DNA of 64,000 nucleotides from Naegleria gruberi (lineage: Eukaryota), in assembly GCA_000004985.1 (NCBI GenBank), contig GG738864.1, one strand, 5' to 3'. The translations under genes were made by a program, and so were the position numbers. Below the pieces are notes generated by a model. That model was not told the DNA's origin. It searched no databases and worked only from the letters and a program-made list of their open reading frames with translations. Positions 10,796 to 29,022 of this stretch are shown here, piece by piece (position 1 is the stretch's first letter; each line of letters begins with the position of its first letter).

Positions 10796-13700
10796 TCAAT
10801 AGTCAAATAAATCATTCAAAGTTTCAAGTATTGACATGATTGGTGGTCGTTTCTCTTCCTCAGCTTTCCAACACTCCTGAATTAATCCACATAGACTGTA
10901 TACTTTGCTAGCTTCCAATGAATCAAAAGTTTGTGGATTATTTCTCTTACACCACTGAAAACATTCTTCCTTAGAATGGAAAGGGATGAGAGGTCTGAGA
11001 TTATCTTGACAAATCTTACTGGTGAGGAAGGGAGTACTTGGGAATTTTCTTTCCTTATCAAGATTTAATCGTTGTAAAGTTCTTGGTTCAGTGTAAGTGT
11101 AGGCATCTTGACATTCGAATAATAATTGCCACATGATAATGCCAAATGCATAAACATCACATGATTTGGCATCTTGAATAGTTCCATTAATCAATTGAGG
11201 GCTCATGAAATTATGTGTACCAATCAAGTGTGTCATTATTGAATTATTCTTATCTGACATTTTGCGTGACAATCCAAAATCACATAATTTACAAATTCCA
11301 TCTTTGGTTAATAAAACATTTCCTGGTTTGAGATCTCTGTGGACAATTGGAGTTGGTAAAGTGTGTAAATACTCAATACCTCTTGCAATACCTAAAAACA
11401 TTTGAATTTTACGATCAAATGTCATTATGACAGTTCCCTTTTCTAACTCATGAATTACATCAACTAGAGATTTGTCCAATCGTTCCATTACTATAAATCC
11501 CTTGTTAGGCATTATTGAAACTCCATAGAAAGATGTAATATTAGGATGTCTCAATTTGACCAGTATTTTGACCTCATTGATAAATTCCTGATCTTGAATG
11601 TCAGAATCCATTTCGAATACTTTTACAGCAACACTAATTCCTTTCCACATACTTTCTATAACCATTCCTTGTCCTCCTTTTCCAAGTCTCTTTCTATTTC
11701 TCAAGTCCAAATCACCAATAGGAATGATAAAATCATTTTGTGGACTAGATTCTGGATCTTGCAGCTCTATTGGTTTGTAATCATCACCAAATAACAATTG
11801 CTTTGATAGAGAATCTGCATCTCCAATAATTTTCTTCTGTTTTCCATATTTTCTGCACAGGAATACCAATAAAGACACCAATAATATCAAAAGTGCTAAA
11901 AAGACAATACTCAAAACGATTGGAACAATTGCTGAAATAACGGAATCATTCTTTTCACAATAATCTCCAGAAGATCCACTTAAACATTTGCAATCATCCA
12001 CGGAATTACACATTCCACGACCACTACATACGTTTGGATCATTCTGTGCTAAGCCATAACACATGGTAAATTGGCATTGGTTTCCTGTATATCTATTCTT
12101 ACTGCATGTACACTTATCAATATCGGTGCAATTTCCTCGACTTTTGGCACCTCCACACGCATCCGGGTTGACCTTTCCATAGCAGGTTGCAGTTTCACAA
12201 TTACTTCCCAAATATTGATCACTATTGCATTTGCAAGAGTTGGATGATTGGCATGTTCCTCTTCCATTACACACGTCCTTATTTGCATTGGTCAATCCAA
12301 AACACACAGGTATATCACATTCCTTTCCAGTAAATCCAGATTGACATTCACATTGATTATATCCTATGCATTTTCCTTTTCCACAAGCATCCCCCTCTGT
12401 TTTTCCATAACAAACAGGCAAACACAATGTGAAATTATCATTCAAAATGTAGCCATTAATTTCACAGTGTGGTGTCAATGTATAAATTGCTGTTCGAGTG
12501 CAATAAATGATTGAGCCAGTAAGTGGGTCGAATTCAATATCTAAGGCATTCTCATTCAGATTTGAAATAGTTTCCACTTCTCTTTCTGATTTGATTAAAC
12601 TAATTTTCCTTCCATATTTGTGAAGGACAATTATTTTGTTATCTAAATTGAATACAGGTGAAAATGGACCCTCCAATCCTGATTCAGCAATTGTTGTAAT
12701 TATTCCATTCTTATTAATTCTTCTAATTCTGTCATTTAACATGTCGCAAAATACTAGATCTCCGAAATCATTAATCAATAGTCCAGTAGGTTTGTTGAGA
12801 GAGGATTTCGTTGCTTGGATGTAGTTCGATCCTCTACCAACATCTCCGTCTCCTGCAAGAGTTGTCAGCATGCCATTTCTGTCAAGTTTTCTAATATTTG
12901 AAAATAAGTCATCTGTGAAATAAACAACATTGAAACTATCCACAACAACAGAATATGGATAAGCAATGCTCAATCTTTCAGTAATATTATCTCTTCCGTA
13001 TCCACCTAAAAATCATTTGATTAGAATCTTTGAGATTCTATGAAAATTTCAACATACCAGAAATGAATGTAATTTCTTTAGTTCTAATTGAATCTTCACC
13101 AGTCATGTTCAATCCTAAAACTCGGTGATTTCTCGAATCTAGAAAATAAAGCATGTCGCCATCCACAAATAAACCTTTAGGGCTGTTCAATTTAATCTTT
13201 GCTGGACTAGTGTCTCTGTTAAATCCAGAAACTCCAACTCCAATTGCTGTTGAAATAAAATGTGAATTCACATTAATTAGTCTAATACGATTATTGAAAG
13301 TATCTGAAACGAAAATTAATTCATTTCCATCGTGATCTGTATAATATTCAGCAAATGTTGGATAGAGAAAGCTGATAAAATTATTAGAAAGACTATGAAA
13401 GAAGCACATGTACTCACCTTGCACTCAGGGAGGAGCCACCATCACCTCCATAACCATCGCTTCTTCCTGCTATTGTTTGAGTATTGGAATTGGCATTGCC
13501 ATTTTGTAAAATTATCTTTCTAATTCTATGATTTGCTAATATAATTAGAATAGTTTGGAAAATTTGAAAACTTACCAGAATCTACAATATACAAATGGGT
13601 AATCTTCTCTGGTTTTTCAACACATAATAAACCATACGGTTGATTGAATGCTGATGCAAGAGGAGCCCCATCAATATATCCTTGATATCCAACACCTGCT

Positions 13701-15577
13701 AATAAGTATCCTCTAGTTTCTTTTAAAGGAAATTCCAAAATACGATGATTGAATGTATCTGAAACATATAGAGTATCTGAATTTGCAGAATATTTAATGT
13801 CAGTAGGAGCATTCATTTGGATTGCACGTCTTGGCTTACCACTATATGGAATAGCTGACCCATCATTGGGAATGGTGAATGTTGGAATTCCAGCAAATGT
13901 ATCAATTATTCCAGTAAGTAACGAAACGTTTCTGATCAATCCATTTCTTGAATCCACAATATACATGACATTTTTCACTATGCATAATCCTTTAGGAGTG
14001 GATAACTGAGCATTAATAGCTAATCCTCCATCACCACTAAATCCAGATTGTCCAGTACCGGCTACAACATAGATTTTCCCCTCTTTGGTAATTTTTCTCA
14101 CCATATTATTTCCTGATTCAGTGAAATAAATATTTCCATCATCTGCTTTGTAAATCGATAAAGGGGTGTCCAGAACTGCATTACTGGCATCCATTCCATC
14201 TTTCTGCTTATTTTTTTTCGAAGAATCAATTAGTACTGTTTTAACTTTCTTCTTGATAACAGCTAAGGATGTGACAGAGGTTTCTGGATCAATAGATGTC
14301 ACGTAAACGCTCTCATCTTCTCCTAAATCGAGCTCTGTATAAATTACACTTTGAGATGAGGAAATTTCAGTACTACTACCCTCCAAAGAGGATACTCTTC
14401 CTGTTGTGAGCGAAATATTTCGAATAATATTACCATCAGTCACGTACAAATTCCTCAATAGTGGAGATAAGGTAATTTTCTCCATTCCCGAAAATCCATA
14501 TTTTAACATGGGTATTCCGTCTAAACTCAATCCATCCTCTGAGAAGATTTTCATCAGATTTCCATTAATAATTGTTAAAATTGCATCGTGATAGGCAATG
14601 AATACATTACTTCCAATATACATATCAGTTACTTCTCCTAGTTCAACTTTGAGGGCAGGTCCATAACTGTACTCTGTTGAATCCTTTCCAGAACCAACAA
14701 TTGCCTTACTTGTTCCATTTCTATTAATTTCGAATATTCTCTGGTAGCAAAAGGCAAATAATTGATCTTGATAAATAGTGGAGGTTCTTAAAATTGTTTT
14801 TGAATTGATAAATTCTTCTTGGTTATTACCAGCTATGGTTACATTCATTGAAAATAGATATTTTGGTTGATTGCCAATTTCATCAAGAATAATGTAGAGA
14901 GAATCATCCTTCAACACGACGAATATTTCATTAGAATCCAAATTAATCGACATGGTAGCTATTGTCATATTAAAAGCAGCAACAGGTTCCGTCCTCAACT
15001 CATTCGTTGTAACATTAAAAGCCATAATCCTATTCGAATCGGCAAAATACAGCATTCCTCTATTAATGACTGCTCTGAGTGGTGGATTGGTCAATTGAGT
15101 TGGTTTCACAAGTGTAGTTGCCTTCCCTGACTTGGTATCAAATTTCCTAATGGCAGGTATTCCTTTATCAATGAAATACACTTGATCATAGGCAATTCCA
15201 TCATCATGAATACTTTTCGAAATGAAAATCGATGAAGGATTTGAAATTAAAGTACCATTCCAACCACCCTGTTTGCTATTAAATGGTTTTCCATACTCTC
15301 CAATCACAGTTTCCACATCACCACTCGACATGTTCACTCGCATGATGCTATTTTTCGAATGTGAAAAGTAGAAACAATTTGGATGAGAAACGGATGGAAA
15401 TACAGAGAGAATATTTCCGAGTTGAATATCTTGGGATTGAGCCAAGATGTTTTCTGCATAATTTACAGGAAGGGACAATTGGGATTGAACGTGATGATGA
15501 TGATAGAAACAAAGAAGAAGAAATGAAACTAAACAAAACGTGAATGATGTGAATAGTTGCATTTTTTTAAATATCAT
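10796..15577 (-). CDS. Receptor Ser/Thr (TKL-type) kinase, about 1525 aa: signal peptide, NHL beta-propeller repeats, four or more tenascin/teneurin-type EGF repeats, one TM helix and a cytoplasmic kinase (paralogue A)
   Basis: Exons are 15577..13576, 13470..13419, 13371..13058 and 13005..10796. Introns are 13575..13471 (GTAAGT...caatag), 13418..13372 (GTGAGT...ttatcag) and 13057..13006 (GTATGT...tttttag). The splice-restored junction reads ...IVDS|AGRSDGYGGDGGSSLSAS|FLYPTF.... NHL motifs recur (SDTFNNRIR, DSRNGLIRNV). The EGF repeats follow CxGxxxxDxxVCxGRGxCxxxxxCxCxxxxxGxxC. The TM helix is IVPIVLSIVFLALLILLVSLLVF. Kinase motifs are LGKGGQGMV, VAVK, HRDLKPGN and DFGLSR. Confidence 0.7.
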
Positions 15578-16494: not shown

Positions 16495-16566
16495 ATAATT
16501 TTCCATTTACGATTTAATGTTTATTTCTCACGTTTTTTTAAAAGAAAGTCAATTATATATTCCCAA

Positions 16567-17511
16567 TCATGGCTTCTTACTTGTTTTTTTCTTAATGCAA
16601 ATCTTCTTCTTAATTGACTTGCAACACTTCTTCTTTCCACCAACTAATTTGAATTTCTTACAAATCTTCTTTCCCTTTGAACGTTTCAAGCATTTCTTAT
16701 AATACTTCTTCTTGATACATCTTGGTGGAATGACAATTGACTTTGCACAATACTTCTTCTTTTGATATTTGACACATTTGGAAATAGTCTTCTTGTGCTT
16801 ACAGAACTTGATTGTCTTATGCTTGGCACAGAAGAATTTCTTCTTAATGAGACAACATTTCTTGATGGATTTTCTCTCCTTACAATATTTAACCTTCTTA
16901 TACTTGGCACATTTCTTTGCCCATGCAACAATCTTGCACTTTTTAACATATCTACATTTGGCGACCTTCTTTTTGTAGGAATCAATAGTGTACTTGTCGC
17001 AAATCTTCCTCTTTTCACACTTCTTGATTGGAACCTTCTTGAATTTCTTACAGACCTTCTTAACTCCCTTCTTGAAACACTTGTTGATAATCTTGTGTTT
17101 GGCACAGAATTTCTTGAAACTCTTCTTGATGCAAATCTTTCTAGTTCCATAAGAATCACAAACTTTCCAATACTTCTTCTTGGCACATCCAACAATCTTG
17201 TACGCGTGCAAGACACACTTCTTTGTTGGCTTGCTGTACTTGTCACATTTGGAATATTTCTTATGTTTGAGACATTTGCCAGCACCGACGATGGCATATT
17301 TATCACAGACTTTCTTTTGACCGACGAGTTTGTGTTTCAAACACTTCTTAATCCACTTGTGCTTTAAGCATTTTCTCTTACAATGCTTTGGTTTGTGATA
17401 CTTGTCAACTATGGCGACTGGAGGTTTAGTTCGATAGGTGTCACTTGCTTGAACTGAGAGGATTGCAAGTAAGAGAAGAATTGCAAATGAAAAGATTAGA
17501 TTTGCTTTCAT
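16567..17511 (-). CDS. Secreted, extremely Lys/Cys-rich low-complexity protein (314 aa)
   Basis: ATG at 17511. The N-terminal signal peptide is MKANLIFSFAILLLLAILSVQA. The mature region is roughly 35-40% Lys with a Cys every 6-10 residues, in patterns such as KKC-x-KHK, CxKxK and KKCCK. Overlapping ORFs on both strands are mirror artefacts of the AAG/AAA/TGC repetition. Confidence 0.5.
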   Translation of the reverse strand: MKANLIFSFAILLLLAILSVQASDTYRTKPPVAIVDKYHKPKHCKRKCLKHKWIKKCLKHKLVGQKKVCDKYAIVGAGKCLKHKKYSKCDKYSKPTKKCVLHAYKIVGCAKKKYWKVCDSYGTRKICIKKSFKKFCAKHKIINKCFKKGVKKVCKKFKKVPIKKCEKRKICDKYTIDSYKKKVAKCRYVKKCKIVAWAKKCAKYKKVKYCKERKSIKKCCLIKKKFFCAKHKTIKFCKHKKTISKCVKYQKKKYCAKSIVIPPRCIKKKYYKKCLKRSKGKKICKKFKLVGGKKKCCKSIKKKICIKKKTSKKP

Positions 17512-17736: not shown

Positions 17737-19119
17737 ATGAATCTTGAGTTGCATCGTTTGAAACGCGAACTCATTTCTAATGAACTTTCCAATAAAAAAT
17801 CATCAAAAAAAATGTCAAAAGAACTGCTCATTCAAGACACTTACGAATTTGTGGATATTTTCTCTCAAGTTTTCCAATTCATGGAAATTAAAGATATCTA
17901 TCCACTACAAAGAGTTTCTGGTTTCTTCTATCGGATGATTGAAAACTTGAAGGAAACTTACATTCGTCCAGTTTACGAAATCGGAGTTGTGGCCACAAAC
18001 GAAGAGCAGTTAGAAAATTTTATTCGAATCTATTTAAATTCATCACAACCACCAAAGAAATATCCAACAATGGACGAATTTATTGCTTCGGATAATTTCA
18101 CAGACGAAATTGCTTCCATTAATAATGTTTTTACAGTTTATGAGAAATACGAAAGGCAGTTTATTTTCAAACAAGATAGATTTAGGGCAATTTTCTATCC
18201 GATTCTGTGTCATAGACATGGAAGTTTGGGAAGAGATGAGCTGAATAGATTGGAAGGGTTTATTTTCCTTTCGCCAGAATATTCGACAGGTTATGCACTC
18301 ATGCCTGAGGGTGTTGATATTTGTGCAACTGTTTTGGATGATCACTATTATTCCAGTAAGCATTTCGTTAAGGAGGAAGAAAAGGAAAAGCTTACAGATA
18401 GAGGATTAGGATTTGTTAAAAATCCAAATTCGAATCCACCAAATACGAATCCACCTTTTGTAAAATTGAAGAAAATTCGAATGCCAGTCATTGAATTTGG
18501 AACTGTTGAAGTGGATGAGAAAGTTTACAAGTACCAGGAGGAATCTCTTGTACAATGCTTAATGTATATTGTGAGTCATTCTAAGAGATGTCTAGATTTG
18601 GATCACTCACTTTCGAATAAGAAACAAAATATGGAAGAATTGAAAGGTTCTCAAAAATTATTTGAAAAAATTACAAAATTAATCAAATTGAAAGATGAAG
18701 AGTTGATGAAAACATTGAAAAGTCTTTTCAAAAATCGATTTGAATATTACAATTTGTTGACCACAGACAATTTGGTCTACATGACGAAACGTCTATGTTT
18801 CTTCCACATTCCTCTTGGAGTTCAAGTTGTTTTATTGAAGAAATTATACACTACACTTGTAAAGAATACTGCATCCCTTTCTGTTAATAATGGAAAAGCT
18901 TCTGTCAAAGTGGAAAGTGAATTTATCAGTGTCCAGTACAAGCAATTAGTTTCCACCGACGATTATGAGTATGTTTATGGATATCATACAAGGAAAAATA
19001 AGAAGGACATTCGGATGGTAACTATTCGATTCTATTATGGAGAGAAAATTGAATTTAAATATGAAAATATTGGAAAGGAAAATACCACACAAAAAGAAGA
19101 TAAATGTTCTTTACAATAG
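17737..19119 (+). CDS. Hypothetical protein (460 aa)
   Basis: ATG at 17737 (MNLELHRLKRELISNE) and an uninterrupted ORF to TAG 19119. It is Lys/Glu-rich. I recognised no domain. A short hydrophobic motif near the N-terminus weakly resembles an F-box. Confidence 0.45.
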   Translation: MNLELHRLKRELISNELSNKKSSKKMSKELLIQDTYEFVDIFSQVFQFMEIKDIYPLQRVSGFFYRMIENLKETYIRPVYEIGVVATNEEQLENFIRIYLNSSQPPKKYPTMDEFIASDNFTDEIASINNVFTVYEKYERQFIFKQDRFRAIFYPILCHRHGSLGRDELNRLEGFIFLSPEYSTGYALMPEGVDICATVLDDHYYSSKHFVKEEEKEKLTDRGLGFVKNPNSNPPNTNPPFVKLKKIRMPVIEFGTVEVDEKVYKYQEESLVQCLMYIVSHSKRCLDLDHSLSNKKQNMEELKGSQKLFEKITKLIKLKDEELMKTLKSLFKNRFEYYNLLTTDNLVYMTKRLCFFHIPLGVQVVLLKKLYTTLVKNTASLSVNNGKASVKVESEFISVQYKQLVSTDDYEYVYGYHTRKNKKDIRMVTIRFYYGEKIEFKYENIGKENTTQKEDKCSLQ

Positions 19120-19159: not shown

Positions 19160-22100
19160 TTATTTGAAATAATTGAGGGAAAGAAGTTGAGATGCATTTG
19201 GTCTTTGTTTTGAATCTTTTTCTAACATTTGCAATACAATTTCAATTAAATCATTCGAATATTCATTATCATTGGATTGTTTCATTTGTTTTGTTAGAAT
19301 GTTGATTGCGTTTTGTGATTGAATTCCCATCAACAAGTTGCTGATTGATGTTTCCTTGTCTTTTGTCATGATTTGATAAATTGAAACACCCAAAGAGAAA
19401 ATATCAGTATTAAAGGAATAGGAACTGCCAAGGGCAATTTCTGGACTCATATCTGAATGGTTTAGTTTCGTCTAAATAAAAAAATAAACTTACATAAAGG
19501 AGTTCCAGCATAGGATTGACCTTTTGATTCTTGAAACTTTTTAGCCAATCCAAAATCTGCCAAAACAATTTCAATTTTTTCACTTTCCAACTTTTTTATA
19601 AATATATTTGTTGGCTTAATATCTCTATTTTTCCAAAATTGATTTTACAAATTCCTAATATATACTTACCTATGAATAATATGCATCTCCTCATGAACAA
19701 GTTTCAATGCACTCAACATTTGTTTCAATATTTGCTTCAATAATTTCTCACTCACTACTTCGTCGTGTTTCAATAAATTTGTCAAATCTCCACATTCATA
19801 ATAATCCATGTCAATAATCAATAAATTGTCGTTGGTGATGAAATAATCATTCACCTTGATGATATTTGGATGATTGATATGGCTCAATTGGGATGCCTCT
19901 TTCATGATGGTATTCAAATCAGTGAATGATTCAAATCTGATAAGTTTGATTGCTTTCAGTTTGTTTCCATGTTTAATATCTGAAACTTTGAAAACACTTC
20001 CAAATGCTCCTTGTCCAATTCTTACAATATTCGAATATCTTGAGAAGGGATTTTCTTCAGAACTACTGGACGAGCCATTTGATGAAGAAATAATCATTGA
20101 GCTGGTGGAAGGAAATTCATTATCCGAAAGTTCAATATTGTTAGTATTGACCTGAACAATTTCCAATTTCTTATTCTTTCTTTTTCTTGAATTGAAGCAC
20201 ATTACCATAATGACTACTATTACAATTATTGTAAACAAAATTAATAAAGATCCAACAATAGGAATAACAATTGCAACTATTAATACTGATGAGTTGGTCG
20301 ATAATTGTCTTGCAATCTTAGTTATTTCACAATACTTTCCTTCAAAATCATCTTTACATTGACACGTGTCAAAATCCGAACAAATTCCATTTCCATTGCA
20401 AACACTTGAATTAGTTGCCAAAGTTCCATTACAATTCAATAGCATATCACACGTATTATTCCAAGTATTGAAAACATAATTTTCCTCACATTGTGGAATA
20501 ATCTTTCGAATATAAGTTGTTGCATCAATGAAGAAAATTTCACCTGAACTTTCGTCAAATTCAACTTGTTTTGTGAAGGAAGTAAATATTGTATCGGAAC
20601 CCTTTCCATCTCCATTGAATGCAGGAGAGGATGACCTCTTTCCAGCCAAGTCAATCAATAATCCACTCTTTTTCTCGTACATTCGAATAAGATTAGGAGC
20701 GCCTTTACTAGTTACTGTTCCATCTAACAATATAATATCACCATTCTTCTTGACAAAGATAGCAGAGGGGTTATCAATCGAAGATTCTAGTGCTGGTAAT
20801 CTGTCTCCTGAATATCCTTGAGAGAAAGTTCCCACCAAAGTTCTCAAATAAAATTGATTATTCGAAATCTTTTCAATTCTTCTAATGGTTTCCATTGTAC
20901 TTAAATAAAGATTTCCATCAATATAAAAAAGTGAAGTAATTAATCCAGGATACGTTTGAAAATTAACAACTATTCCGTCAGTAGATATTGGATTTGAGGA
21001 ATTGAACGTAAATTCCAGATTTAGTAGTTGAGTTTCCAAGCTGTATCTGTAAATATGCAAGATGTCTGATATTACTAAATCACCATTTGATTCATCTATT
21101 GTAAACCCTGACATTGCATTTGGTGGACAAGGTGAAAGTGTTCCCTTGACATTTGGTACAAAAGCTCCACAAGCACTTCCAATCACTCTTTCATAATTCA
21201 TAGTTTCTGGATCAAGTCTGATAATTCTACATGTTTCCTTAATGTATATCTTGTTATCAAATTTGGAAAGTTTACCAAAAGTTTTTAAACCAAGTATTGA
21301 CATGGTGATTGTCAAATAAGGAAAATCAAAAACTGGAATAGAAGGCAATAAAAACCAGCTAAGTGAAATTGACTTGCCTGTTTTTTCGTCAAACTTTTTT
21401 AAAACTCGATAATTATCAATGAAATAGTTTATCTTTTTAGCCGAATCTCTCATCAACAAAACAGGACTCAATGTTTTAGCTAATGGATTGAGTCCAGCTA
21501 TGGTTTTGATTGTTCCATTTGAAATTTCACTGATATAATTGGAGCAGGAGATGTAAATTCTTGAATCTTCTCTGTTCACTTGAATTGCATAACTTTGTAT
21601 TTGATTGTAATCTAATTTCAGTTTACAAAAATTACTTACGTTGCTGAAGTTTCAATAGGAATGTCATCACCATTGAATCCAGATGTATAAATATTAGTAT
21701 TTGAAATGTTAACCGCATCAAGTCCAACAATTTTCTTTAATGAAAGTGAATCCCATGAATATTCATAAACTTGTGAATAAATATAGAAATAGAAAATTCT
21801 GCCAAATGTAGTAAATCCATTAAATGATATATCTGATATTTTTCTAATACTAGTTGTATAATTTCCATTCTTATAATCAATATATTCATAAATACTGTTA
21901 CCAGAATAATATAACAGAGAATTAGTTCCATTTATGGTTAAATCTGGAATAACACGTATCAAACCTAACCCAGGGATATCAATTTTCAGGATATACAATA
22001 GATTGGATTTGTGAAAAACTGAAAAGGTTTGAACGTAAGTTTGATAATAAATTGTTGAATTCTCATAGGAATCCCCTGTTGCAGTAATGGCACTCGAATA

Positions 22101-23547
22101 ATATTTTGGATCGTGAACAAGTGTCAAATTTTGAGTTTCCATATTGAATACGTATAATCCCAAATTTATACTACCAGTAATCAAAATTTCTCCATTTCCA
22201 AAATGATGTAAAAAGCCAATTGAGAAGAAAATTCGACTAGGTTTGTTGGAGGGGTATTTCAATTCTTTGGAAGAGCCAAATACTGTTGTCATTTTCCCAT
22301 TCGAAACCTTTCGAATTACTAAAGATTGTTCAACAAAATAGAGATCGTTCTTGTATCGAAATGGAAATGTAGTAGCTCCGTAAGTGTACATTTTGAGAGG
22401 TGAAATATTTTCACCATACGGATGATTGATTATTCCACCTGCAAGTGTAGAAACCATCTTGCTTTGTAAATCAATCTTTCGAATACAACTGTTCGATTTA
22501 TCCGCAACCAAAATTGAATTACGAGTCACAATCAAAGAAGAAGGTTCATAAAACTTGATACTAGAGGTATCATATAATTGATTATCACCTTCATATCCAC
22601 TTTCAGATACAGAACTTCCAATAAATAAAAGAGTAGAGGATGATTTTTCCTTTTTCATCTGAATGAAATGATTTGATTGTGAAGAGGTGTAAATTTCACC
22701 TTCATTCGAAACATAAATTCCATATCTGAAAGTAAATATTAAATTTCATCATTATTACTATTCGAAACTTACAAATTAGATTGAGATAATCCTCCATCCA
22801 CAATTCTATAAAATCCATTTTCATCAATTGACTTGACTCTTTCCTCATCTGTGAAATATACAATATCATTCTTTCCATTATTAGAATAAACATATATATT
22901 CTTTGGTGATTTTAAAAGTAATGACTTGGCATCAACTCCATCATAATCTCCATTTAGATAACCACCTCCTCCTAATATGGAAAGTGTTTGAGTGGCAATT
23001 TCATATTTCCAAATTAAGTTATTATTAGTATCTGCAATGTAGGCATTTCCATTCTTTGAAACACTGACACCTTTTGGTTTGTTAAAGGTATGCGAAATGG
23101 AAGAAACCAATTTGGTCGAATACGAAACTATTCGAATCATATCATTCAAAGTATCGGCAATAAACAAATCACCATTCAATGGATTCACTGCCACAGATGT
23201 TGGTGTATTCAGTAGAGTACCAACAGCACTCTGTCCATCTCCATTAAACCCACTCGTTGTAAATCCAGCATAAACTTCCAAAGTTGACCAATTTTGATCA
23301 TAAATTCTATAAATTAAATGTCTTTCAATATCAGAAATATAAATCTCACCATTCAATCCTTCACATAATCCACTCGGTGATAACATGTAAGCAAATTTCG
23401 CATCCACCACATCAAAATTAGTTGTACTTCCTTCAATTGTTTTGGTTGAGTAATATTTCACATTCTTCGATCTTTCCACAGCAGCACATGTGCTGGCCAA
23501 CAAGTTGCTGAGCAGGAGTAGTAGTAGTATTGAAGTGGTGACCTCCA
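19160..23547 (-). CDS. Receptor Ser/Thr (TKL-type) kinase, about 1400 aa: signal peptide, NHL repeats, EGF-like module, TM helix and kinase (paralogue B)
   Basis: Exons are 23547..22773, 22725..21640, 21592..19670, 19624..19494 and 19452..19160. Introns are 41-47 nt and all use GTAAGT donors: 22772..22726, 21639..21593, 19669..19625 and 19493..19453. Splicing restores ...HEEMHIIHR|DIKPTNIFIKK...DFGLAKKF...GTPLY|MSPEI.... The signal peptide is MEVTTSILLLLLLSNLLASTCAA. The TM helix is VLIVAIVIPIVGSLLILFTIIVIVVIMVM. Kinase motifs are GQGAFGSV, AIK, HRDIKPTN and DFGLAK. Confidence 0.7.
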
Positions 23548-24212
23548 TTGAAAGACACCTGCCAACTGTCGCATGTCTTGAGTAATGGTACAACATGTTT
23601 GCTTTATTTTTGTTTATTTTGAACAATACATCTTGTGCGTCTATTTCCGAATAATCAATGTGGGTTAAAGGATAATTGTTCCAACTCCATAACAGATGTT
23701 GTAAAGAAATTGATGTATGGTGATTGGATGAATATTCCTCTTTTTTGGCAAGTTTCGTCATCATCTCATGCGGGTAAATTAGTGTTACTGTACCGTTGTA
23801 GTAGCTCGAACATTCTATGTTCAAAGGATTAGTCTAAATTCGAATAAAAATTAAAGATCTAATTAAACTCCACATGATTCATTTCTTGTGTAATATGCAA
23901 ATTATCAGCAATAGATTCAGGAAATTGTAAACTCCATCTTCATGATCCAATTCATAATATTCATTGTTTTCCAAATTTACAATAACTGAACAAACAAACC
24001 TTGCTTCAAAAAATCAACCAAACTCTCGTAATACCTTGCTTGGTTTTCGTTCCAACAATTCATCTCTTGCTGTAAATTAAGATGAATTACTGTGTGATCA
24101 AGTTTTTTCCTTAGATTCTAGTTGTAAAAGAGAATTCTCCATTTCTAAAAGAGATCCAAAGGAGGATTGACTAAAGTGCATACATATAAGTGTTAAAGTG
24201 ATTGTTTATTAA

Positions 24213-27200
24213 TTAATTTTTGAGTGAATTTTTCAATAGAGAAAGAATTTCATTAAAGTGGTGAATAGAAGGTCTTTGAGAAGGATTAGTTTCCCATCCC
24301 TTCTTAATTAAATCAAGTAATTGGTAGATTACTGTACTTTCTTGGAGTGAATAGGCCTTTTTCATTTCACACCAAGATTGACAATCTTCCAAAGTTTCGA
24401 ATGGAATGAGTGGACGATGTCCAGATGCAATCTTTGGAAGCAGTTGGCTTAATAAATTTTGATATTGAACTGGTTGTTCAAGATTCAACTTGTTTAATAT
24501 CAATGGATTCGTATAATAATAAGGATCCATAATTTCAAATAGAATTTGCCACATGATTATTGACAAACTATAAATGTCAACAGCAGTTAACAATTGCCTT
24601 TCAATTTCACCAAATGATTCAGGACTATTAATCAAAATCATTAGAAAGATAATAAATAGTAATACTCTACCTCATATAATAAAAAGTTCCAATTTGATTT
24701 GTAATTTGCGTGTTGTTTTGCTTATTCAAGAGTCTGGACAAACCAAAATCACACAACTTGCTCACTCCATGAACATCTTGCAAAATATTGGCAGGTTTCA
24801 AATCTCTGTGCACGATCGTTGGTTTCAGATTGTGTAAATATTCGATTCCTTTGCAGATATCAAGCATAATATCCATCTTTTGACTCAATGACAATTTCAT
24901 TCTATTAGATTGGAGTTCAGCAATAATATTTTCAAGACTTCTCTCCATTTTCTCCATTACAATATATCTCTTGGTTGGAGTAGAAGAAACTCCAAAGAAG
25001 GAAATAATATTTGGATGTCTCAATCTGGAAAGAACTGTTGCTTCAGACCTAAAATCATTTTCATCAATATTCATATTATTCAAATCGAAAACCTTAATAG
25101 CTACTTCAGTTCCAATCCATTGAGATTGATAAACTGATCCATAGCCACCAGAACCAAGTTTCTTCATTTTACCCAAATCCAACTTGTTAATAGAAATGAA
25201 GAATGAATCTGCTTCATCCTTCTTCTTTCCATCATTGTCAATTTCCAGTTCAAGCATGTTATCAGTAACAAATTGATCAGTTTTAATGATCTTTCTCTGA
25301 ACATAATACTTTCTGAATAGACCAATAATAATGAAAAGTGAACCACCAATGCAAAAGACAAGAACTGCAACACCTATTAAAGCACCAATAAGAGCCCACA
25401 GTTCATCAGAATGTTGACATTGTTCACCTGAATAACCAAATTGACAGGTGCATTGATTTGGAAGTGAACAACTGCCTCTTCCATTACAAACGTCTGCCTC
25501 TTTTTCATTCCTTCCAAAACATGTCATTAATTCACATTCTAAACCAGTATATCCAGTATTACAAGAACATTGATTCTTGTCAAGGCAACTTCCTCTTACT
25601 GAACCACCACAAGCCCCGTCAAGAATCTTTCTGAAACAAATTGGCGTTTGACACATTGAGGAAGTATATCCTTCTTTACAAATGCAAGTATTTGGAGCTG
25701 TGCAGTTACCTCTTCCATTTGTGCAAACACTGGAACTATTAGAAGCTTCTCCATAACAAACTGGTATTTCACATTCGAAACCTGTATATCGAGACGAGTC
25801 ATAACATTGACACAAATCTGGTGAAAGACATTCTCCATTATTATTGCAAACATTTCCACTCAACAGTTTGATCTTTCCATAACAAATTGGAAGGCAAGTA
25901 TCATTCTTTGAATAGACATGACCATTCTCACAGAAAGCTTCCAATTTTCTAACATTATTCAATGAAGAATCGATAAAGAATAATACATTTCCTTCATTGT
26001 TAATTGTCATGGAGGTGGGTGAAATACTGAAAGGTTTTGATTTGGTTTGAGATGGAGCAGATCCATCCCCCGCAATTACATCAAATGGATGACTAGCAAT
26101 GGTTGAAATCTTTCTAATAAAATTGTTTTTGCTATCTGAAATAATTGTTTGTCCCTTATAAGAAACAACTGAGGAAGGTGAATTTAAGGAACTTGTTTTT
26201 GGATCAGAGGTTTGAGAGAAGCCAGTGAACCCATTACCTGCTACAGTTTCCAATAATCCTTTCTTGTTAATTTTTCTCACCTTACTAATTCCAGATTCGA
26301 CAAAGATTAATTCACCCTCTTCATTGACATACAATCCTTTAGGTGCTGCAATATCTGATGAAATGGCCAATCTTCCATCCTCGGAGATTCCAAACAATCC
26401 AGTTCCTGCAATAGTTGAAATTACTCCATTTGTGGAAATCTTTCTAATTCTATTCTGAGCTGTTTCACTAACGTACATTTCACCACTCGAGGAGAAGGCA
26501 ACATACGAAGCCTCAACTTGTGAATAAAGAGCCAAGTTATTGTCGCCAATTCCTCCAGCAAATTTCTTTACCCACTTTCCTTCAATTTGACTTTCCAATA
26601 TTCTATTGTTACCTTTTCAAATTTCTTAATAAAATAATTCTAAATACTTTTAACTTACCTGAATCAGCAATAAATAAAATAGATTTGGAATGGTCAAAGA
26701 AGGTACATTGTGGATTATTCAATTTGACATTAGAACCTGTAATGTTTCCTTCGAAATAATTATAACCTGCAAAACCATTACCAACAACTGAATAAGTGGA
26801 CGAAAGGACAGCAAATCTAATTCTATGAGATTGGGAATCAGTAATGTGGATATCAGTTAAAGCAGATCCAACTGAGTTTACACTCGAAACACAAGTTGGT
26901 GTATTGTAAATTGCATTTGGTAAATTAAAATCATCTGTGTAACCCTTAGCTCCACTACCACTATGCGTAGTTACAGTTACTGGATCATTAAAAAGTGGTT
27001 GTAGATCAACATATCTAATACGATTATTTCCAGAGTCTGCAAAATAGATAATCCAATCTGAATTGAGAGAGAATCCCATAGGTGTGTCCAAATGAGTGGA
27101 GAGAGCTGGCCCATCACCATTGAATCCCTTTACACCACTTCCAGCAATGGTTTGAATAATACCAGTACTAAGAGTAATTTGTCTTAATCTATTATTGAAA

Positions 27201-29022
27201 GTATCAGAAAAAAACAATTCATGATAATAATTGACTTGGAGATAGGTTGGAGAATTCAATTGAGCAGTAAGGGCATTAATATTGTCTCCATTGTAACCTT
27301 GTATTCCATTTCCTGCAATGGTTTGGATGATTCCAGATGTTATGTTGACAGCTCTAATTCTATGATTATTGGTATCGGCAACATAGAGCACATTATTATC
27401 CAAATAGATTCCAGTTGGAGAATTAAGCTTGGCCAATGTTGCTAAACCACCATCACCATCAAATCCAGAAGTTCCACATCCAGCAACACCAATTACCACA
27501 CCACTAGTTCTGTGAACCTTAATAATTCTATGATTTCCAGAATCAGAAATGTATACATAACTAGTTGTTGCAAAAATTCCCTTTGGAGAGTTTAGAACTA
27601 GTTGATCTTTGTGTTGCTGTAAAAGCCTGGATGCTGTTATTGGACCTGCAAACATTGTTGAAATGCTTCCATTATATTTGTGAATGAAACCCTTTGATGA
27701 GACAACATATAGATCACTGTTATTGGTTGAGACTGAAACTGGATTGAGAGCAAAAGGTTGATAGGTATCAATGAAATTCAACTCCTTCTCTGGGGCTATC
27801 ATTTCAAGTTTGTTGTTTGCTGAGATTTTTCGTACAGCTCCATAGTCAGAAACGTAAAGGTTTCCACTTTGCTGATCCAGAACTATTCCAGTTGGAGAAT
27901 GAAGTGTTGTCTCACTAGAATTGTATCCATCAATAAATGGACCAATAACAGCTCCATCATAATTAATAAACAAGATCAATGATATTGTTTCATCAATCAT
28001 TGAAATTTTTCTAATTGTTTTCAGTCCAAAATCGCTAACGTACATGAAACCATTATGAATACCAAAATACTGATTTATGGCAATGAATTCAGCATCACTT
28101 GCCTTTCCACCATCTCCAAAAGTGGTTGCTTCCAAACTAGCCTGTTTACCATTTCCAACAAATCTTGAAATATTTCCATTTCTCAAATCCATTTTCCTTA
28201 TTGTCGAAGAAAGCTCTTTAGTATCCACGTATAGCAAGTAATTATCCACTCTCAACAGTCCTGGATGAGTAAAATCTAAATTTTCTACCAACAGCTCTTC
28301 ACCATTATCAATGGTCCATCTACAAAGTGATTTCACATCAATATCTTTAAATTTGAAATAATAAACGACACCATCATCATCCACATAGACATCCAAAACA
28401 TTTGATGATGTTGAAATGTAGGTGCTGACAATACCATTCTCTACTTTTCTAATTGCATCATTATACCCATCTGCAATGTACATAATTCCATCTTTATCAA
28501 TGAACATTGAATAGATCCTAGTGTGTATGAAATGTGTTAGATAAAGAACAAATAATTGAACACATACCCATCAAAGAGAGCTTCTCTTGCATCTCCTCCA
28601 TCACCACTATATCCTGATTCATCTTTGATTCCGACAATTACTGTATAATTAGCCTCAACTTTTTCATTGATAATACTTATGGAAGTGGAATCGGAACAAT
28701 AAACAACACCACTTTTAACATTCACGTATAATGAACAAATGAATGGCTTCTTGAGGAGTGTCATCTTTTTTGATACTGCATCTATTTTAGCAATGAAACT
28801 ATCATCCACGGTATCACATTCAAAATAAATGTGTCCTTCATTAGTAACATGGACAGCTCCTAAACCACTGAATACATTCTGTTTGTGAGGTTTGGTTACA
28901 TCACTCAGTGAGTATTTTGGTGTTGTTTGACCAAAGGATTCCCTTAGTAGGAATTGTGTGAAAAAGCAACAAGCTAACAACACTAAGGCAATGACGGATT
29001 GGAAAGGAAGGTGTTGCTTCAT
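24213..29022 (-). CDS. Receptor Ser/Thr (TKL-type) kinase, about 1555 aa: signal peptide, very long NHL beta-propeller region (probably two propellers), EGF repeats, TM helix and kinase (paralogue C)
   Basis: Exons are 29022..28559, 28507..26659, 26612..24671 and 24624..24213. Introns are 28558..28508 (GTATGT), 26658..26613 (GTAAGT) and 24670..24625. The last intron has a weak GTAGAG donor. Splicing restores the NHL consensus ...FIADSG|NNRILESQIEGKW... and the kinase ...GTFYYM|SPESFG.... The TM helix is LIGALIGVAVLVFCIGGSLFIIIGLF. Kinase motifs are LGSGGYGSV, AIK, HRDLKPANIL and DFGLSR. Confidence 0.7.

What the first reader, a model, noticed from the sequence alone, without database searches (positions are those of the whole stretch)
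16567..17511. Secreted protein of extreme Lys/Cys composition with a regular Cys spacing
After a canonical signal peptide the mature 290 aa are roughly one-third lysine. A cysteine recurs every 6-10 residues (KKC-x-KHK, CAKHK, KKCCK), and there are almost no acidic residues. That makes a strongly cationic, disulfide-rich and repetitive secreted polypeptide. It resembles antimicrobial, protamine-like, adhesive or biomineralisation proteins, but I know of no named family that matches. tRNA-Glu sits about 70 bp beyond its stop codon.
Basis: seen in the sequence. Interest (0 to 1): 0.55.

Follow-up and report, generated by a model that had tools for sequence, protein, structure and literature searches.

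The report
Secreted lysine/cysteine ladder protein of Naegleria
This is a real, conserved gene of the amoeba Naegleria that encodes a secreted, extremely lysine-rich protein whose evenly spaced cysteines probably staple it into a long rigid hairpin; it belongs to an uncharacterised family found only in Naegleria and a few related soil and freshwater organisms, and its function is still inferred rather than shown.

Summary
Window 16567-17511 (minus strand) is an intact 314-codon gene. It has a canonical signal peptide and a mature part with 36% Lys, 31 Cys (modal spacing 9) and only 9 acidic residues.

It is not a satellite. TRF finds no tandem repeat, dN/dS against an orthologue is 0.135, and 29 of 33 Cys columns are conserved in three orthologues.

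Two new features emerged:
- The Cys spacing is mirror-symmetric about a central linker over 13-14 positions. Together with low-confidence AlphaFold hairpins, this suggests that the two halves pair antiparallel as a disulfide-laddered β-hairpin rod.
- Every Asp lies in a D-x-Y motif. This motif also forms tandem D-S-Y-K-P tails in the N. fowleri relative.

Codon bias resembles that of a ribosomal protein gene, which suggests high expression.

My best reading, at about 0.4 confidence, is an extracellular, cross-linkable structural polycation of the cyst wall, matrix or adhesive. The main rival is an antimicrobial polycation. I could obtain no expression or localisation data.

The parts
16567..17511 (-). 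Complete single-exon CDS (314 codons plus a TGA stop at 16567-16569) of the Lys/Cys-rich secreted protein
   Evidence: ORF listing and translation. Homologues align from the start Met to the C-terminus. dN/dS against L004 is 0.135.
17446..17511 (-). Signal peptide, residues 1-22 (MKANLIFSFAILLLLAILSVQA), with predicted cleavage after VQA
   Evidence: Hydropathy profile and the -3/-1 rule. AF2 predicts a helix at model positions 2-23, which is protein 3-24. Equivalent segments occur in the homologues. SignalP was not run.
17383..17445 (-). Cys-free N-terminal tail, residues 23-43, with two D-x-Y motifs (SDTYRTKPP and VDKYHKP)
   Evidence: Motif mapping and enrichment test. D23/Y25 (alignment numbering, equal to protein D24/Y26) are invariant in alignment A1.
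16999..17382 (-). N-terminal Cys arm ('L arm'), residues 44-171, with 15 Cys. Gaps counted outward from the linker are 6, 11, 9, 9, 9, 9, 9, 10, 10, 9, 11, 12, 9, 4. It contains four C-D-x-Y motifs.
   Evidence: Cys positions. The gap fingerprint is conserved family-wide. Mirror-symmetry tests. AF2 strands at model positions 46-62/65-83 and 138-170.
16957..16998 (-). Central linker, residues 172-185 (DKYTIDSYKKKVAK). This is the largest Cys gap (15), carries two D-x-Y motifs, and is the predicted hairpin turn.
   Evidence: It is the turn region between AF2 strands 138-170 and 185-218.
16597..16956 (-). C-terminal Cys arm ('R arm'), residues 186-305, with 16 Cys including two CC doublets. Gaps counted outward are 6, 9, 9, 9, 9, 9, 9, 9, 10, 9, 10, 12, 9. 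It has one acidic residue and 51 Lys+Arg.
   Evidence: AF2 strands at model positions 185-218, 280-289 and 292-301.
16570..16596 (-). Basic C-terminal tail, residues 306-314 (IKKKTSKKP). Ser311 replaces the last ladder Cys, which is present in orthologues.
   Evidence: Orthologue comparison (alignment column 329: S/C/C). P0002 ends ...KRKTCKKP....

Best explanation
The locus is a genuine single-exon Naegleria gene for a secreted, probably unglycosylated, soluble protein of about 34.5 kDa. It belongs to a small orphan family restricted to Naegleria and a few environmental relatives.

Shown:
- An intact ORF under purifying selection.
- A canonical signal peptide.
- Net charge about +105.
- A conserved Cys-spacing fingerprint.
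- A D-x-Y motif that contains every Asp.
- No membrane anchor.
- Codon bias like that of a ribosomal protein gene.

Inferred structure. After entry into the oxidising secretory pathway, the N-terminal Cys arm (residues 44-171) and the C-terminal Cys arm (186-305) pair antiparallel around the central DKYTIDSYKKKVAK turn. Cysteines about 9 residues apart form cross-strand disulfide rungs, about 14 in all. The result would be a long, core-less β-ribbon rod, up to about 40 nm if fully extended, covered with lysine side chains.

Inferred function. The rod acts as an extracellular structural polycation. It binds polyanionic partners electrostatically, such as acidic wall or matrix polysaccharides and negatively charged surfaces. 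It is then locked into a network in two ways: through the spare cysteines that fall outside the ladder (C44, C220 and C297 here), and through the tyrosines of the terminal and linker [V/I]-D-[S/T]-Y-x-P motifs.

The most likely site of action is the cyst wall or another secreted matrix or adhesive layer.
For: A real gene:
- ORF and translation.
- No tandem DNA repeat; only short, diverged repeats at multiples of 27 nt.
- An intact 326-aa orthologue in L005, and an orthologue in L004 that is frame-intact apart from one in-frame TGA.
- NG86 dN/dS of 0.135 overall, and 0.10 downstream of the L004 TGA. 29 of 33 Cys columns are conserved.

A narrow family:
- 4 hits in the first search.
- 21 hits among 1.84e9 representatives.
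- The named hits are N. gruberi NAEGRDRAFT_76199, 67458 and 66117, N. fowleri FDP41_004030 and N. lovaniensis C9374_009239.

Secreted and soluble:
- Signal peptide.
- The highest 19-residue hydropathy in the mature part is 0.3, and there is no N-glycosylation sequon.

Hairpin-ladder fold:
- Both AF2 models are all-β, with a central hairpin at model positions 138-170/185-218 where pLDDT is 70-85.
- The Cys gaps are mirror-symmetric about the central linker. For the window protein the summed difference is 4 for the mirror register and 16 for a direct register. P is 2e-5 when all gaps are shuffled and 7.5e-4 when only the R arm is shuffled.
- For the N. fowleri protein the differences are 6 and 34, with P<1e-5, even though the gap values at its tip differ (9|41|9 and 17/18).
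- Hydrophobicity shows no period-2 or period-3.6 amphipathicity, only period 4.5 (z=4). This fits a core-less ribbon held together by disulfides.

Cross-linking potential:
- The mature protein has an odd Cys count, and the CC doublets and extra Cys vary between orthologues.
- D-x-Y accounts for 7 of 7 Asp (shuffle mean 0.41, P<5e-5) and is enriched in every Naegleria member. It forms tandem DSYKP/DTY tails in P0004, P0016, P0017 and P0024.

High expression:
- The gene has the highest AAG fraction (0.70) and GC3 (0.48) of the 27 long ORFs in the window. GC3 without Lys is 0.37, against 0.21-0.33 for the others.
- The N. fowleri homologue's codon usage resembles that of the adjacent RPS24 gene.

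The Naegleria encystment machinery and its wall proteins are described as poorly known (PMC9928731), so an undiscovered wall protein is plausible.
Against: - I obtained no expression, localisation or biochemical data. The gene IDs are absent from all searched paper texts and supplements.
- Overall AF2 confidence is low (mean pLDDT 49 and 57, pTM 0.20). AF2 also predicts local hairpins at the two 12-residue gaps rather than one global hairpin.
- The strictest symmetry test, which permutes only within the terminal irregular zone, gives just P=0.05, 0.014 and 0.007. The sequences tested are homologous, so these results are not independent.
- There is no recognisable carbohydrate-binding or known wall-protein domain.
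- The cyst-wall assignment rests on analogy and composition only.
- A polycation of this kind could equally well be bactericidal.
- The non-Naegleria members P0011 and P0012 lack the D-x-Y motif and are much less basic. Those two features are therefore lineage-specific additions, not the core of the family.
Confidence: 0.4

Rival explanations
1. Antimicrobial or bacteria-binding polycation. The protein is delivered to phagosomes or secreted. There its lysine-coated, disulfide-stabilised β-hairpins bind and permeabilise or agglutinate the anionic envelopes of prey bacteria. It would act like a giant version of the β-hairpin antimicrobial peptides or of protamine/polylysine.
For: - Net charge about +105 and pI 10.2.
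- Predicted disulfide-braced β-hairpins.
- A signal peptide gives access to the endolysosomal or secretory route.
- Codon bias indicating abundance.
- Naegleria is a bacterivore that needs lytic effectors (PMC9928731, lists lysozymes and other degradative enzymes).
- The family is small, lineage-specific and diverges quickly in sequence, with 32-48% identity between Naegleria species and paralogues.
Against: - The protein is 292 aa long with a single conserved global architecture. It is not a polyprotein of equivalent peptide units.
- There are no distinctive processing sites, because KK and KR occur everywhere.
- It lacks amphipathic periodicity at period 2 or 3.6, whereas membrane-active hairpin peptides are amphipathic.
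- dN/dS of 0.135 shows purifying selection, not the diversifying selection common in host-defence peptides.
- The conserved Tyr motifs and spare Cys are not explained.
- Less basic family members exist (P0012 has a net charge of +30).
Confidence: 0.2
2. Substratum adhesive. The protein is a secreted 'natural polylysine' with Tyr-Lys-Pro motifs. It glues trophozoites or cysts to negatively charged mineral or organic surfaces, working like the Lys/Tyr(DOPA)/Cys-rich mussel foot proteins.
For: - Extreme Lys content, with Tyr at 5-12% across the family.
- D-[S/T]-Y-K-P and D-T-Y-K-P-P motifs at the termini. From memory, their composition resembles the mussel mfp-1 decapeptide.
- Spare thiols.
- Homologues come from soil and freshwater metagenomes.
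Against: - I have no evidence for tyrosine hydroxylation or for any tyrosinase partner.
- The motifs are few, 7 in the window protein.
- The bulk of the protein is a rigid Cys ladder, not a flexible coacervating sequence.
- This explanation overlaps with the best explanation and cannot be separated from it with the present data.
Confidence: 0.12
3. Luminal polyanion-packaging protein. The polycation condenses polyphosphate, nucleic acid or acidic glycans inside secretory granules, acidocalcisome-like organelles or the contractile-vacuole system, and is not itself a wall component.
For: A signal peptide plus extreme positive charge with almost no acidic residues. High predicted expression.
Against: There is no retention or sorting signal and no supporting data. 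The elaborate conserved Cys architecture and the Tyr motifs are unnecessary for simple charge neutralisation.
Confidence: 0.08
4. Secreted thiol/metal-binding (metallothionein-like) protein, with the cysteines reduced and chelating Cu or Zn.
For: 10.7% Cys and 9 His, with recurrent C-x-K-H-K motifs.
Against: - Apart from two CC doublets, the protein has no C-x-C or C-x-x-C clusters.
- A strict 9-residue Cys spacing is unsuited to forming metal-thiolate clusters.
- The protein passes through the oxidising secretory pathway.
- The gene IDs are absent from the Naegleria copper-response proteomic supplements. This is weak evidence, because the protein yields only 6 tryptic peptides of 7 or more residues.
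Confidence: 0.04
5. Not a functional gene: a chance ORF in AAG/TGT-rich simple sequence, or a pseudogene.
For: - Low-complexity composition produces long alternative ORFs in other frames (206 aa and 201 aa).
- One orthologue (L004) carries an in-frame TGA.
- The L002 copy is split across three frames.
Against: - No tandem repeat.
- dN/dS of 0.135, and 0.10 downstream of the L004 stop.
- Cys positions are invariant across paralogues at 32-48% identity.
- The signal peptide is conserved.
- There is an intact 326-aa orthologue.
- L002 has only 1.5x coverage.
Confidence: 0.02

Closest known systems
Cystine-ladder β-hairpin host-defence peptides (θ-defensins, protegrins, tachyplesins, arenicins); comparison from general knowledge
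   Same: Cationic, with two antiparallel strands cross-braced by parallel disulfide 'rungs'. They have no hydrophobic core, and stability comes from the disulfides.
   Different: Those peptides are 17-25 residues long, with 1-3 rungs only 2-4 residues apart, and they are amphipathic. This protein has about 250 residues in the ladder and about 14 predicted rungs spaced 9 residues apart. It shows no period-2 amphipathicity and no sequence or fold match to them.
Cysteine-rich and tyrosine-rich wall proteins of protist cysts and oocysts (Cryptosporidium/Toxoplasma COWPs, Eimeria GAM56/82, Entamoeba Jacob/Jessie lectins, Acanthamoeba Luke/Leo/Jonah lectins; PMC6541295 for the last group)
   Same: Signal-peptide proteins made in bulk and rich in regularly spaced Cys and/or cross-linkable Tyr. 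They are lineage-specific and build resistant extracellular walls.
   Different: There is no homology: Pfam gives 0 hits and there is no lectin or carbohydrate-binding domain. Those proteins are not polycationic. A cyst-wall location is unproven for this family.
Aquatic insect silk/cement proteins with regularly spaced Cys (Chironomus Balbiani-ring secretory proteins) and mussel foot proteins mfp-1 and mfp-6; comparison from general knowledge
   Same: Secreted, basic and rich in Lys, Cys and Tyr, with short Tyr/Lys/Pro motifs. Their function depends on electrostatic adhesion plus disulfide or Tyr-derived cross-links.
   Different: Those proteins are built of long tandem sequence repeats. This one has no sequence-level tandem repeat but a fixed, mirror-symmetric Cys fingerprint instead. 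There is no evidence for DOPA.
Protamines (mammalian P1) and other Cys-containing polycations
   Same: Extreme positive charge, with cysteines that form stabilising disulfides and bind polyanions.
   Different: Protamines are nuclear, Arg-rich, about 50 aa long and lack a signal peptide. This protein is Lys-rich (106 K against 8 R), 292 aa long and enters the secretory pathway.
Uncharacterised Naegleria proteins NAEGRDRAFT_67458, NAEGRDRAFT_66117 and NAEGRDRAFT_76199 (C-terminal part), FDP41_004030, C9374_009239
   Same: True homologues, with the same signal peptide, the same Cys-gap fingerprint, D-x-Y motifs and a basic character.
   Different: They are annotated only as predicted or hypothetical proteins. 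The window protein and its close orthologues (L004, L005, P0001) are the most Lys-rich at 28-34%, against 18-25% in the others. NAEGRDRAFT_76199 is fused in its gene model to an unrelated SAM/PB1 protein.

Membership tests
Naegleria Lys/Cys 'ladder' orphan family (defined here) | N-terminal signal peptide followed by a Cys-free tail that carries a D-x-Y motif | tested here: met
   D-T-Y at protein residues 24-26 aligns with invariant columns of A1.
Naegleria Lys/Cys 'ladder' orphan family (defined here) | Conserved Cys-gap fingerprint: N-terminal 4-(9/10)-12-11-9-10..., a central largest gap, and C-terminal ...10-9-10-12-9(-7) | tested here: met
   One search gives the gap lists for 16 members. 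The window protein lacks only the final Cys.
Naegleria Lys/Cys 'ladder' orphan family (defined here) | Significant sequence similarity to other members | tested here: met
   E=1.7e-55 to NAEGRDRAFT_67458 and 6.7e-17 to FDP41_004030. The profile search gives 1e-125 and 3e-114.
Any curated Pfam-A family | hmmscan match at or near the gathering threshold | tested here: not met
   0 families at E<=1 for the window protein and for five homologues.
β-hairpin / cystine-ladder antimicrobial peptides | Small mature peptide (<40 aa) or a polyprotein of such units | tested here: not met
   The mature chain is 292 aa with one global, orthologously conserved architecture. There are no equivalent repeated peptide units.
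β-hairpin / cystine-ladder antimicrobial peptides | Amphipathic alternation of hydrophobic and cationic residues along the strands | tested here: not met
   The hydrophobicity power at period 2 has z=-0.1. Only period 4.5 is significant.
β-hairpin / cystine-ladder antimicrobial peptides | Cross-strand disulfides between antiparallel strands | tested here: inconclusive
   Supported indirectly by mirror-symmetric Cys gaps and by low-confidence AF2 hairpins. There is no disulfide map.
β-hairpin / cystine-ladder antimicrobial peptides | Bactericidal activity | not testable with these tools
   Needs recombinant protein and MIC assays.
Protist cyst/oocyst wall proteins (COWP, Jacob/Jessie, Luke/Leo/Jonah, Giardia CWP) | Homology to their Cys-rich, lectin or LRR domains | tested here: inconclusive
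   No Pfam family of any kind matched. I did not verify which of these wall-protein domains are represented in Pfam, and I made no direct pairwise comparison.
Protist cyst/oocyst wall proteins (COWP, Jacob/Jessie, Luke/Leo/Jonah, Giardia CWP) | Encystation-specific expression and localisation in the wall | not testable with these tools
   No usable expression data: the IDs are absent from the paper texts and supplements searched.
Metallothioneins | Clusters of C-x-C, C-x-x-C or C-C motifs, and a cytosolic location | tested here: not met
   Apart from two CC doublets, the Cys gaps are 4-15 with a mode of 9, and a signal peptide is present.
Protamines | Arg-rich, about 50 aa, nuclear, no signal peptide | tested here: not met
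   106 Lys against 8 Arg, 292 aa, and a signal peptide is present.
Mussel foot protein / extensin-type tandem-repeat adhesives and wall proteins | Long arrays of tandem Tyr/Lys/Pro (or Ser-Pro4) repeats | tested here: not met
   There is no tandem repeat at the DNA level. The window protein has only 7 isolated D-x-Y motifs, and the N. fowleri homologue has up to 4 tandem DSYKP copies.
Classical secretory protein | Cleavable N-terminal signal peptide and no other membrane anchor | tested here: met
   Manual n/h/c analysis and the -3/-1 rule. The highest hydropathy in the mature part is 0.3. SignalP, DeepTMHMM and a GPI predictor were not available.

The most novel reading that the evidence does not exclude
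The family may define a previously undescribed protein architecture. It would be a single, very long two-stranded β-ribbon with arms of about 120-128 residues, up to about 40 nm long, and no hydrophobic core. Some 14 evenly spaced cross-strand disulfides (one every 9 residues) would hold it together, and a lysine brush would cover it. Naegleria would use this as a rigid polycationic building block of its hitherto molecularly undefined cyst wall or matrix, cross-linked through spare cysteines and D-x-Y-x-P tyrosine motifs.
Probability: 0.25. Interest if true: 0.7.

Novelty: new variant of a known kind. Interest (0 to 1): 0.45.

Why it matters
If the structural reading is right, this family would give the first molecular candidates for Naegleria cyst-wall or matrix proteins. 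This area is described as poorly understood, and it is relevant to the environmental persistence and disinfection resistance of N. fowleri cysts.

It would also be an unusual example of protein design: a long, core-less 'cystine ladder' rod with an extreme charge density. That would interest structural biologists and biomaterials researchers.

There is a practical point as well. Lys occurs about every third residue, so trypsin leaves only six peptides of 7 or more residues. Standard shotgun proteomics would therefore barely detect the protein, which may explain why it has not been reported.

If the protein is instead an antimicrobial polycation, it would be a new class of amoebal effector against prey bacteria.

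Either way, the present evidence establishes a real, conserved, lineage-restricted gene. Its function is still inferred.

Tried and rejected
**Satellite or chance ORF: rejected.**
- TRF finds nothing.
- Internal DNA repeats are short, only 65-94% identical to their reference copies, and spaced at multiples of 27 nt.
- dN/dS is 0.135.

**Paralogues within the window: none.** tblastn without composition correction finds only the self hit.

**Known-family searches: all empty.**
- Pfam for the protein and its homologues.
- PDB profile search.
- Foldseek against PDB, best E=2, to the β-hairpin stems of pore-forming toxins.
- The afdb50 library was unavailable.

**Guilt by fusion: no lead.**
- The extra N-terminal Cys-rich repeat domain of the metagenomic member P0011 has no Pfam or PDB match either.
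- The SAM/PB1 fusion in NAEGRDRAFT_76199 is most likely a gene-model artefact, because that part does not map anywhere in this window.

**Expression and proteomic evidence: nothing found.**
- The gene IDs are not in any searchable paper text.
- They are not in the supplements of the N. fowleri cyst/trophozoite transcriptome, a differentiation preprint (no supplements held), the axoneme-elimination paper or the copper proteomics paper.

**Old biochemical literature on the N. gruberi cyst wall:** I recalled a 1967 J. Bacteriol. paper by Werth and Kahn, but it is not held.

**Conserved synteny or tRNA linkage: none.**
- The N. fowleri locus has different neighbours and no tRNA.
- L002 has no tRNA. 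L004 and L005 are too short to tell.

**Direct-repeat (tandem duplication) explanation of the two halves: rejected.** A direct register of the Cys gaps fits much worse than the mirror register: 16 against 4, and 34 against 6. Protein-level similarity between the halves is marginal (E=0.017).

**α-helical amphipathic model: not supported.** There is no period-3.6 signal, Pro and Gly are frequent, and AF2 predicts an all-β structure.

**Exact-sequence contig look-ups** failed for the window protein, P0001, P0002 and P0003.
Full report
**1. The observation**

The window has 33% G+C. At 16567-17511 on the minus strand it carries an uninterrupted ATG-to-TGA ORF of 314 codons. The product starts MKANLIFSFAILLLLAILSVQA|SDTY. 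It has a basic n-region, a hydrophobic core of about 18 residues (9-residue Kyte-Doolittle mean up to 3.5) and V-x-A at positions -3/-1. This is a textbook signal peptide, although SignalP could not be run.

The remaining 292 residues contain 106 Lys (36%), 8 Arg, 9 His, 31 Cys, 7 Asp and 2 Glu. The net charge is about +105 and the calculated pI is 10.2. Cys-Cys gaps are 4, 9, 12, 11, 9, 10, 10, 9, 9, 9, 9, 9, 11, 6, 15, 6, 9, 9, 9, 1, 8, 9, 9, 9, 10, 9, 10, 12, 1, 8. Sixteen of these 30 gaps equal 9. The lag-9 autocorrelation is 16, against 3.1 +/- 1.6 in shuffles.

tRNA-Glu(TTC) lies 73 bp past the stop on the opposite strand. Every factual element of the finding is therefore confirmed.

**2. 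Is it a real gene?**

Neither holds.

- Tandem Repeats Finder reports nothing, even at score 30.
- The only direct repeats are 16-31 nt long and 65-94% identical to their reference copies. They are spaced at multiples of 27 nt, which reflects an old nonamer periodicity at the protein level rather than recent DNA amplification.
- A metagenomic contig (L005) carries an intact 326-aa orthologue with 60% identity.
- Another contig (L004, 75% identity) is co-linear. It has one in-frame TGA (GGA to TGA) but no frameshift.
- Nei-Gojobori dN/dS between the window and L004 is 0.135 (dS about 1.1). It is 0.10 for the 206 codons downstream of that TGA. The TGA is therefore a sequencing error or a very recent lesion.
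- 29 of 33 Cys columns are Cys in all three orthologues.
- Most Cys columns are invariant across proteins that share only 32-48% identity.

The long ORFs in the other frames are by-products of the AAG-rich composition.

**3. Organism and family**

The first protein search returned four hits, and every named one is from Naegleria. The C-terminal third of the protein is 95% identical to N. gruberi NEG-M. The window therefore comes from a close relative of that strain.

A profile search that reads all 1.84 billion cluster representatives found only 21 proteins at E<=1e-3. The named ones are listed below:

- N. gruberi NAEGRDRAFT_67458 (301 aa)
- N. gruberi NAEGRDRAFT_66117 (475 aa)
- N. gruberi NAEGRDRAFT_76199
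- N. fowleri FDP41_004030 (379 aa)
- N. lovaniensis C9374_009239 (430 aa)

All five are annotated as predicted or hypothetical proteins. The remaining hits are fragments from soil, freshwater and other metagenomes.

No known family or fold matches:

- No Pfam family matches the window protein or five relatives at E<=1.
- A family profile finds no PDB sequence at E<=1.
- Foldseek finds only insignificant (E>=2) matches to the long β-hairpin stems of pore-forming toxins.

This is an orphan family, apparently restricted to the heterolobosean lineage.

**4. What defines the family**

The extreme Lys content does not define it. Lys is 30-34% in the window protein, L004 and L005, and 28% in P0001. 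It is 18-25% in the other Naegleria members and 13-14% in the non-Naegleria members P0011 and P0012. All members are net basic, from +30 to +106.

What is conserved is a Cys-gap fingerprint. It has three parts:

- an N-terminal 4-(9/10)-12-11-9-10 segment followed by a run of 9s;
- a central largest gap;
- a C-terminal ...9-9-9-10-9-10-12-9-7 segment.

Conserved Gly-containing motifs (VGQKK, VGAGK, VGGKK) sit in the longer gaps. The nonamer consensus is C-[A/L/I/K]-K-[K/H/Y]-K-x-[I/Y/K]-K-[K/V/F/Y].

A second, unexpected feature is a D-x-Y motif. All 7 Asp of the window protein lie in D-x-Y (shuffle mean 0.41; 0 of 20,000 shuffles reach 7). The motif is similarly enriched in every Naegleria member but absent from P0011 and P0012. 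It occurs in two contexts:

- as C-D-x-Y at the start of inter-Cys segments;
- as [V/I/P]-D-[S/T/P]-Y-x-P in the Cys-free N-terminal tail, in the central linker, and as tandem C-terminal copies. Examples of the tandem copies are IDSYKP in FDP41_004030, VDTY in P0016 and P0024, and DVY in P0017.

**5. Predicted structure**

Two AlphaFold2 runs were made, with 4 and 9 aligned sequences. Their mean pLDDT values were 48.9 and 57.1, and pTM was 0.20. Both models are low in confidence and all-β. The model numbering is protein numbering minus 1, because my coordinate choice dropped the start Met.

The best-supported element (pLDDT 70-85) is a hairpin of two strands of about 33 residues, at model positions 138-170 and 185-218, around the linker DKYTIDSYKKKVAK.

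The Cys gap lists give a test that is independent of AF2. Read outward from the central gap, with CC doublets merged, they are mirror images:

| Protein | Left arm (outward) | Right arm (outward) |
|---|---|---|
| Window | 6, 11, 9, 9, 9, 9, 9, 10, 10, 9, 11, 12, 9, 4 | 6, 9, 9, 9, 9, 9, 9, 9, 10, 9, 10, 12, 9 |
| N. fowleri | 9, 17, 9, 9, 9, 9, 9, 9, 10, 9, 11, 12, 10, 4 | 9, 18, 9, 9, 9, 9, 9, 9, 10, 9, 10, 12, 9, 7 |

The statistics for these two proteins are:

| Test | Window | N. fowleri |
|---|---|---|
| Summed gap difference, mirror register | 4 | 6 |
| Summed gap difference, direct register | 16 | 34 |
| P, shuffling all gaps | 2e-5 | <2e-5 |
| P, shuffling the right arm only | 7.5e-4 | <1e-5 |

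The N. fowleri protein has different tip values but keeps the same symmetry. The harshest control permutes only within the irregular terminal zones. It still gives P=0.05 (window), 0.014 (L005) and 0.007 (N. fowleri).

Gene duplication cannot create mirror symmetry of spacing. The natural explanation is that the two halves run antiparallel and are bridged Cys to Cys. This would make a cystine ladder of about 14 rungs, with arms of 128 and 120 residues, about 40 nm long if fully extended.

Hydrophobicity shows no period-2 or period-3.6 signal, only period 4.5 (z=4). This fits a solvent-exposed ribbon stabilised by disulfides rather than by a hydrophobic core.

Several caveats apply:

- The sequences tested are homologous, so the tests are not independent.
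- AF2 prefers local hairpins at the two 12-residue gaps.
- I could not inspect the model coordinates.
- I therefore give the global-hairpin fold roughly 35-45% probability, and the weaker statement that these are disulfide-braced β-hairpins about 70%.

**6. Other properties**

- The mature chain has no second hydrophobic segment (highest 19-residue hydropathy 0.3), no N-glycosylation sequon and a hydrophilic C-terminus. The protein is therefore predicted to be soluble and secreted or luminal.
- Under the ladder model the window protein has three Cys left over: C44, C220 and C297. C44 has lost its partner, because Ser311 replaces a Cys that is present in L004, L005 and NEG-M.
- The CC doublets and extra Cys differ between orthologues. 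They are candidates for intermolecular disulfides.
- Codon usage is the most biased of the 27 long ORFs in the window. AAG makes up 70% of Lys codons, against 27-63% in the others. GC3 without Lys is 0.37, against 0.21-0.33. TTC, ATC, GTC, CAC, GAC, CTC and GCC are preferred, and GTA, GTG and ATA are avoided.
- The N. fowleri homologue uses codons like the adjacent ribosomal protein S24 gene rather than like the local background. I take this as indirect evidence for high expression.
- Trypsin would leave only six peptides of 7 or more residues. Standard shotgun proteomics would therefore barely detect the protein.

**7. Mechanism**

The following points are shown:

- The protein is a conserved, secreted, Cys-periodic polycation.
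- Its Tyr motifs are conserved.
- It has cysteines left over from the ladder.
- Its codon bias is that of an abundant protein.

The following points are inferred:

- The protein folds into one or more disulfide-laddered β-ribbon rods.
- The rods bind polyanions through their Lys brush.
- The rods are cross-linked through the spare thiols and through the D-x-Y-x-P tyrosines.
- Together they form an extracellular structural or adhesive matrix.

The cyst wall is the most plausible site. Wall proteins of other protists are likewise lineage-specific, Cys- and/or Tyr-rich, made in bulk and cross-linked. The molecular components of Naegleria encystment are acknowledged to be poorly known (PMC9928731).

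I give this reading about 0.4. The main rival, at about 0.2, is a phagosomal or secreted antimicrobial or bacteria-agglutinating polycation. It is weakened by four observations: the size of the protein, its single conserved global architecture, its lack of amphipathicity, and purifying rather than diversifying selection. Other readings are listed with lower weights: a substratum adhesive, a luminal polyanion packager, a metal binder and a non-gene.

I found no expression, localisation or biochemical data despite several attempts.

**8. Comparison with what is known, and novelty**

The sequences are already in public databases as hypothetical proteins, so the gene itself is not new. No publication, family model or structure covers it.

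It works most like known Cys-rich, cross-linked extracellular proteins and, structurally, like a greatly elongated cystine-ladder β-hairpin. It fails the membership tests for β-hairpin antimicrobial peptides, metallothioneins, protamines and tandem-repeat adhesives.

I rate it a new variant of a known kind: a new orphan family of secreted Cys-rich basic proteins. There is a 25% chance that it represents a truly new architecture, a long core-less cystine-ladder rod used as a wall building block.

The interest is moderate (0.45). The composition and the symmetry are striking and experimentally tractable, but the function is unproven and the phylogenetic range is narrow.

**9. Genomic context**

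The gene sits between tandem minus-strand genes for NHL-propeller/EGF/protein-kinase receptor-like proteins. It shares a 225-bp divergent intergenic region with an orphan 460-aa ORF.

Neither the neighbouring genes nor the tRNA are conserved at the N. fowleri locus, whose gene has two introns. Context therefore adds nothing to the functional inference.

Noticed in passing
window 10799-15577, 19160-23764 and 24670-28507 (all minus strand): Three tandem paralogous receptor-kinase-like genes. Each combines an NHL/teneurin-like β-propeller, EGF repeats and a protein kinase domain. Each is split over 2-3 ORFs, presumably by introns, and they flank the Lys/Cys gene.
   Followed up: partly
P0002 = N. 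gruberi NAEGRDRAFT_76199 (no locus held): The NEG-M gene model joins an N-terminal SAM/PB1 protein to the last ~130 residues of the orthologue of this gene. The SAM/PB1 part maps nowhere in this 64-kb window. The model is probably an annotation or assembly artefact, and the true NEG-M orthologue is probably unannotated at its 5' end.
   Followed up: partly
L004 628-630: A 75%-identical orthologue has a single in-frame TGA where the window has GGA (Gly108, just before Cys109). The reading frame and the purifying selection continue downstream, where dN/dS is 0.10. It is either a sequencing error or a very recent nonsense allele. Selenocysteine read-through was not examined.
   Followed up: partly
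window 16579-16581 (codon 311, AGT): The window protein has Ser where L004, L005 and NEG-M have the last conserved Cys (TGT). This is a single A/T difference. It leaves an odd Cys count (31) and, under the ladder model, an unpaired C44.
   Followed up: partly
L003 3836-5977 (P0011; also P0022): A non-Naegleria metagenomic member carries the Cys-ladder module at its C-terminus. In front of it lie about seven ~40-residue, 4-Cys 'C-P...C-x-x-G...C-x4-C' repeats, which have no Pfam or PDB match. This looks like a second orphan Cys-rich module.
   Followed up: partly
P0018 (539 aa, metagenomic; no locus): The N-terminal half consists of about 25 tandem copies of an 11-residue unit, CDRHKLIGAGH. This resembles the family's CDKYAIVGAGKC segment. 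It is followed by an unrelated globular domain. It may be a spurious translation or an independent expansion of one ladder unit.
   Followed up: no
L001 6001-7343: The N. fowleri homologue FDP41_004030 has two GTAAGT...CAG introns, at about 6239-6349 and about 7132-7223. The window gene, L004 and L005 have no introns.
   Followed up: partly
L002 3397-3989: A shorter, degenerate-looking copy in a 1.5x-coverage metagenomic contig is split over three reading frames and lacks several conserved Cys. It is either a pseudogene or the product of assembly errors.
   Followed up: partly
window 16520-16525 (minus strand): An AATAAA hexamer lies 41-46 nt downstream of the stop codon, in the 73-bp spacer before the convergent tRNA-Glu gene. 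It may be a poly(A) signal. The 3' UTR must be very short, or it must overlap the tRNA gene.
   Followed up: no
window 17737-19119 (plus strand): A divergently oriented 460-aa ORF lies 225 bp upstream of the Lys/Cys gene. It has no significant Pfam match (F-box-like, E=0.24). It appears to be an orphan gene that shares the promoter region.
   Followed up: no
window 43769-43841 and 59558-59629: Two further dispersed tRNA genes, Lys(CTT) and Met(CAT), both on the plus strand.
   Followed up: no
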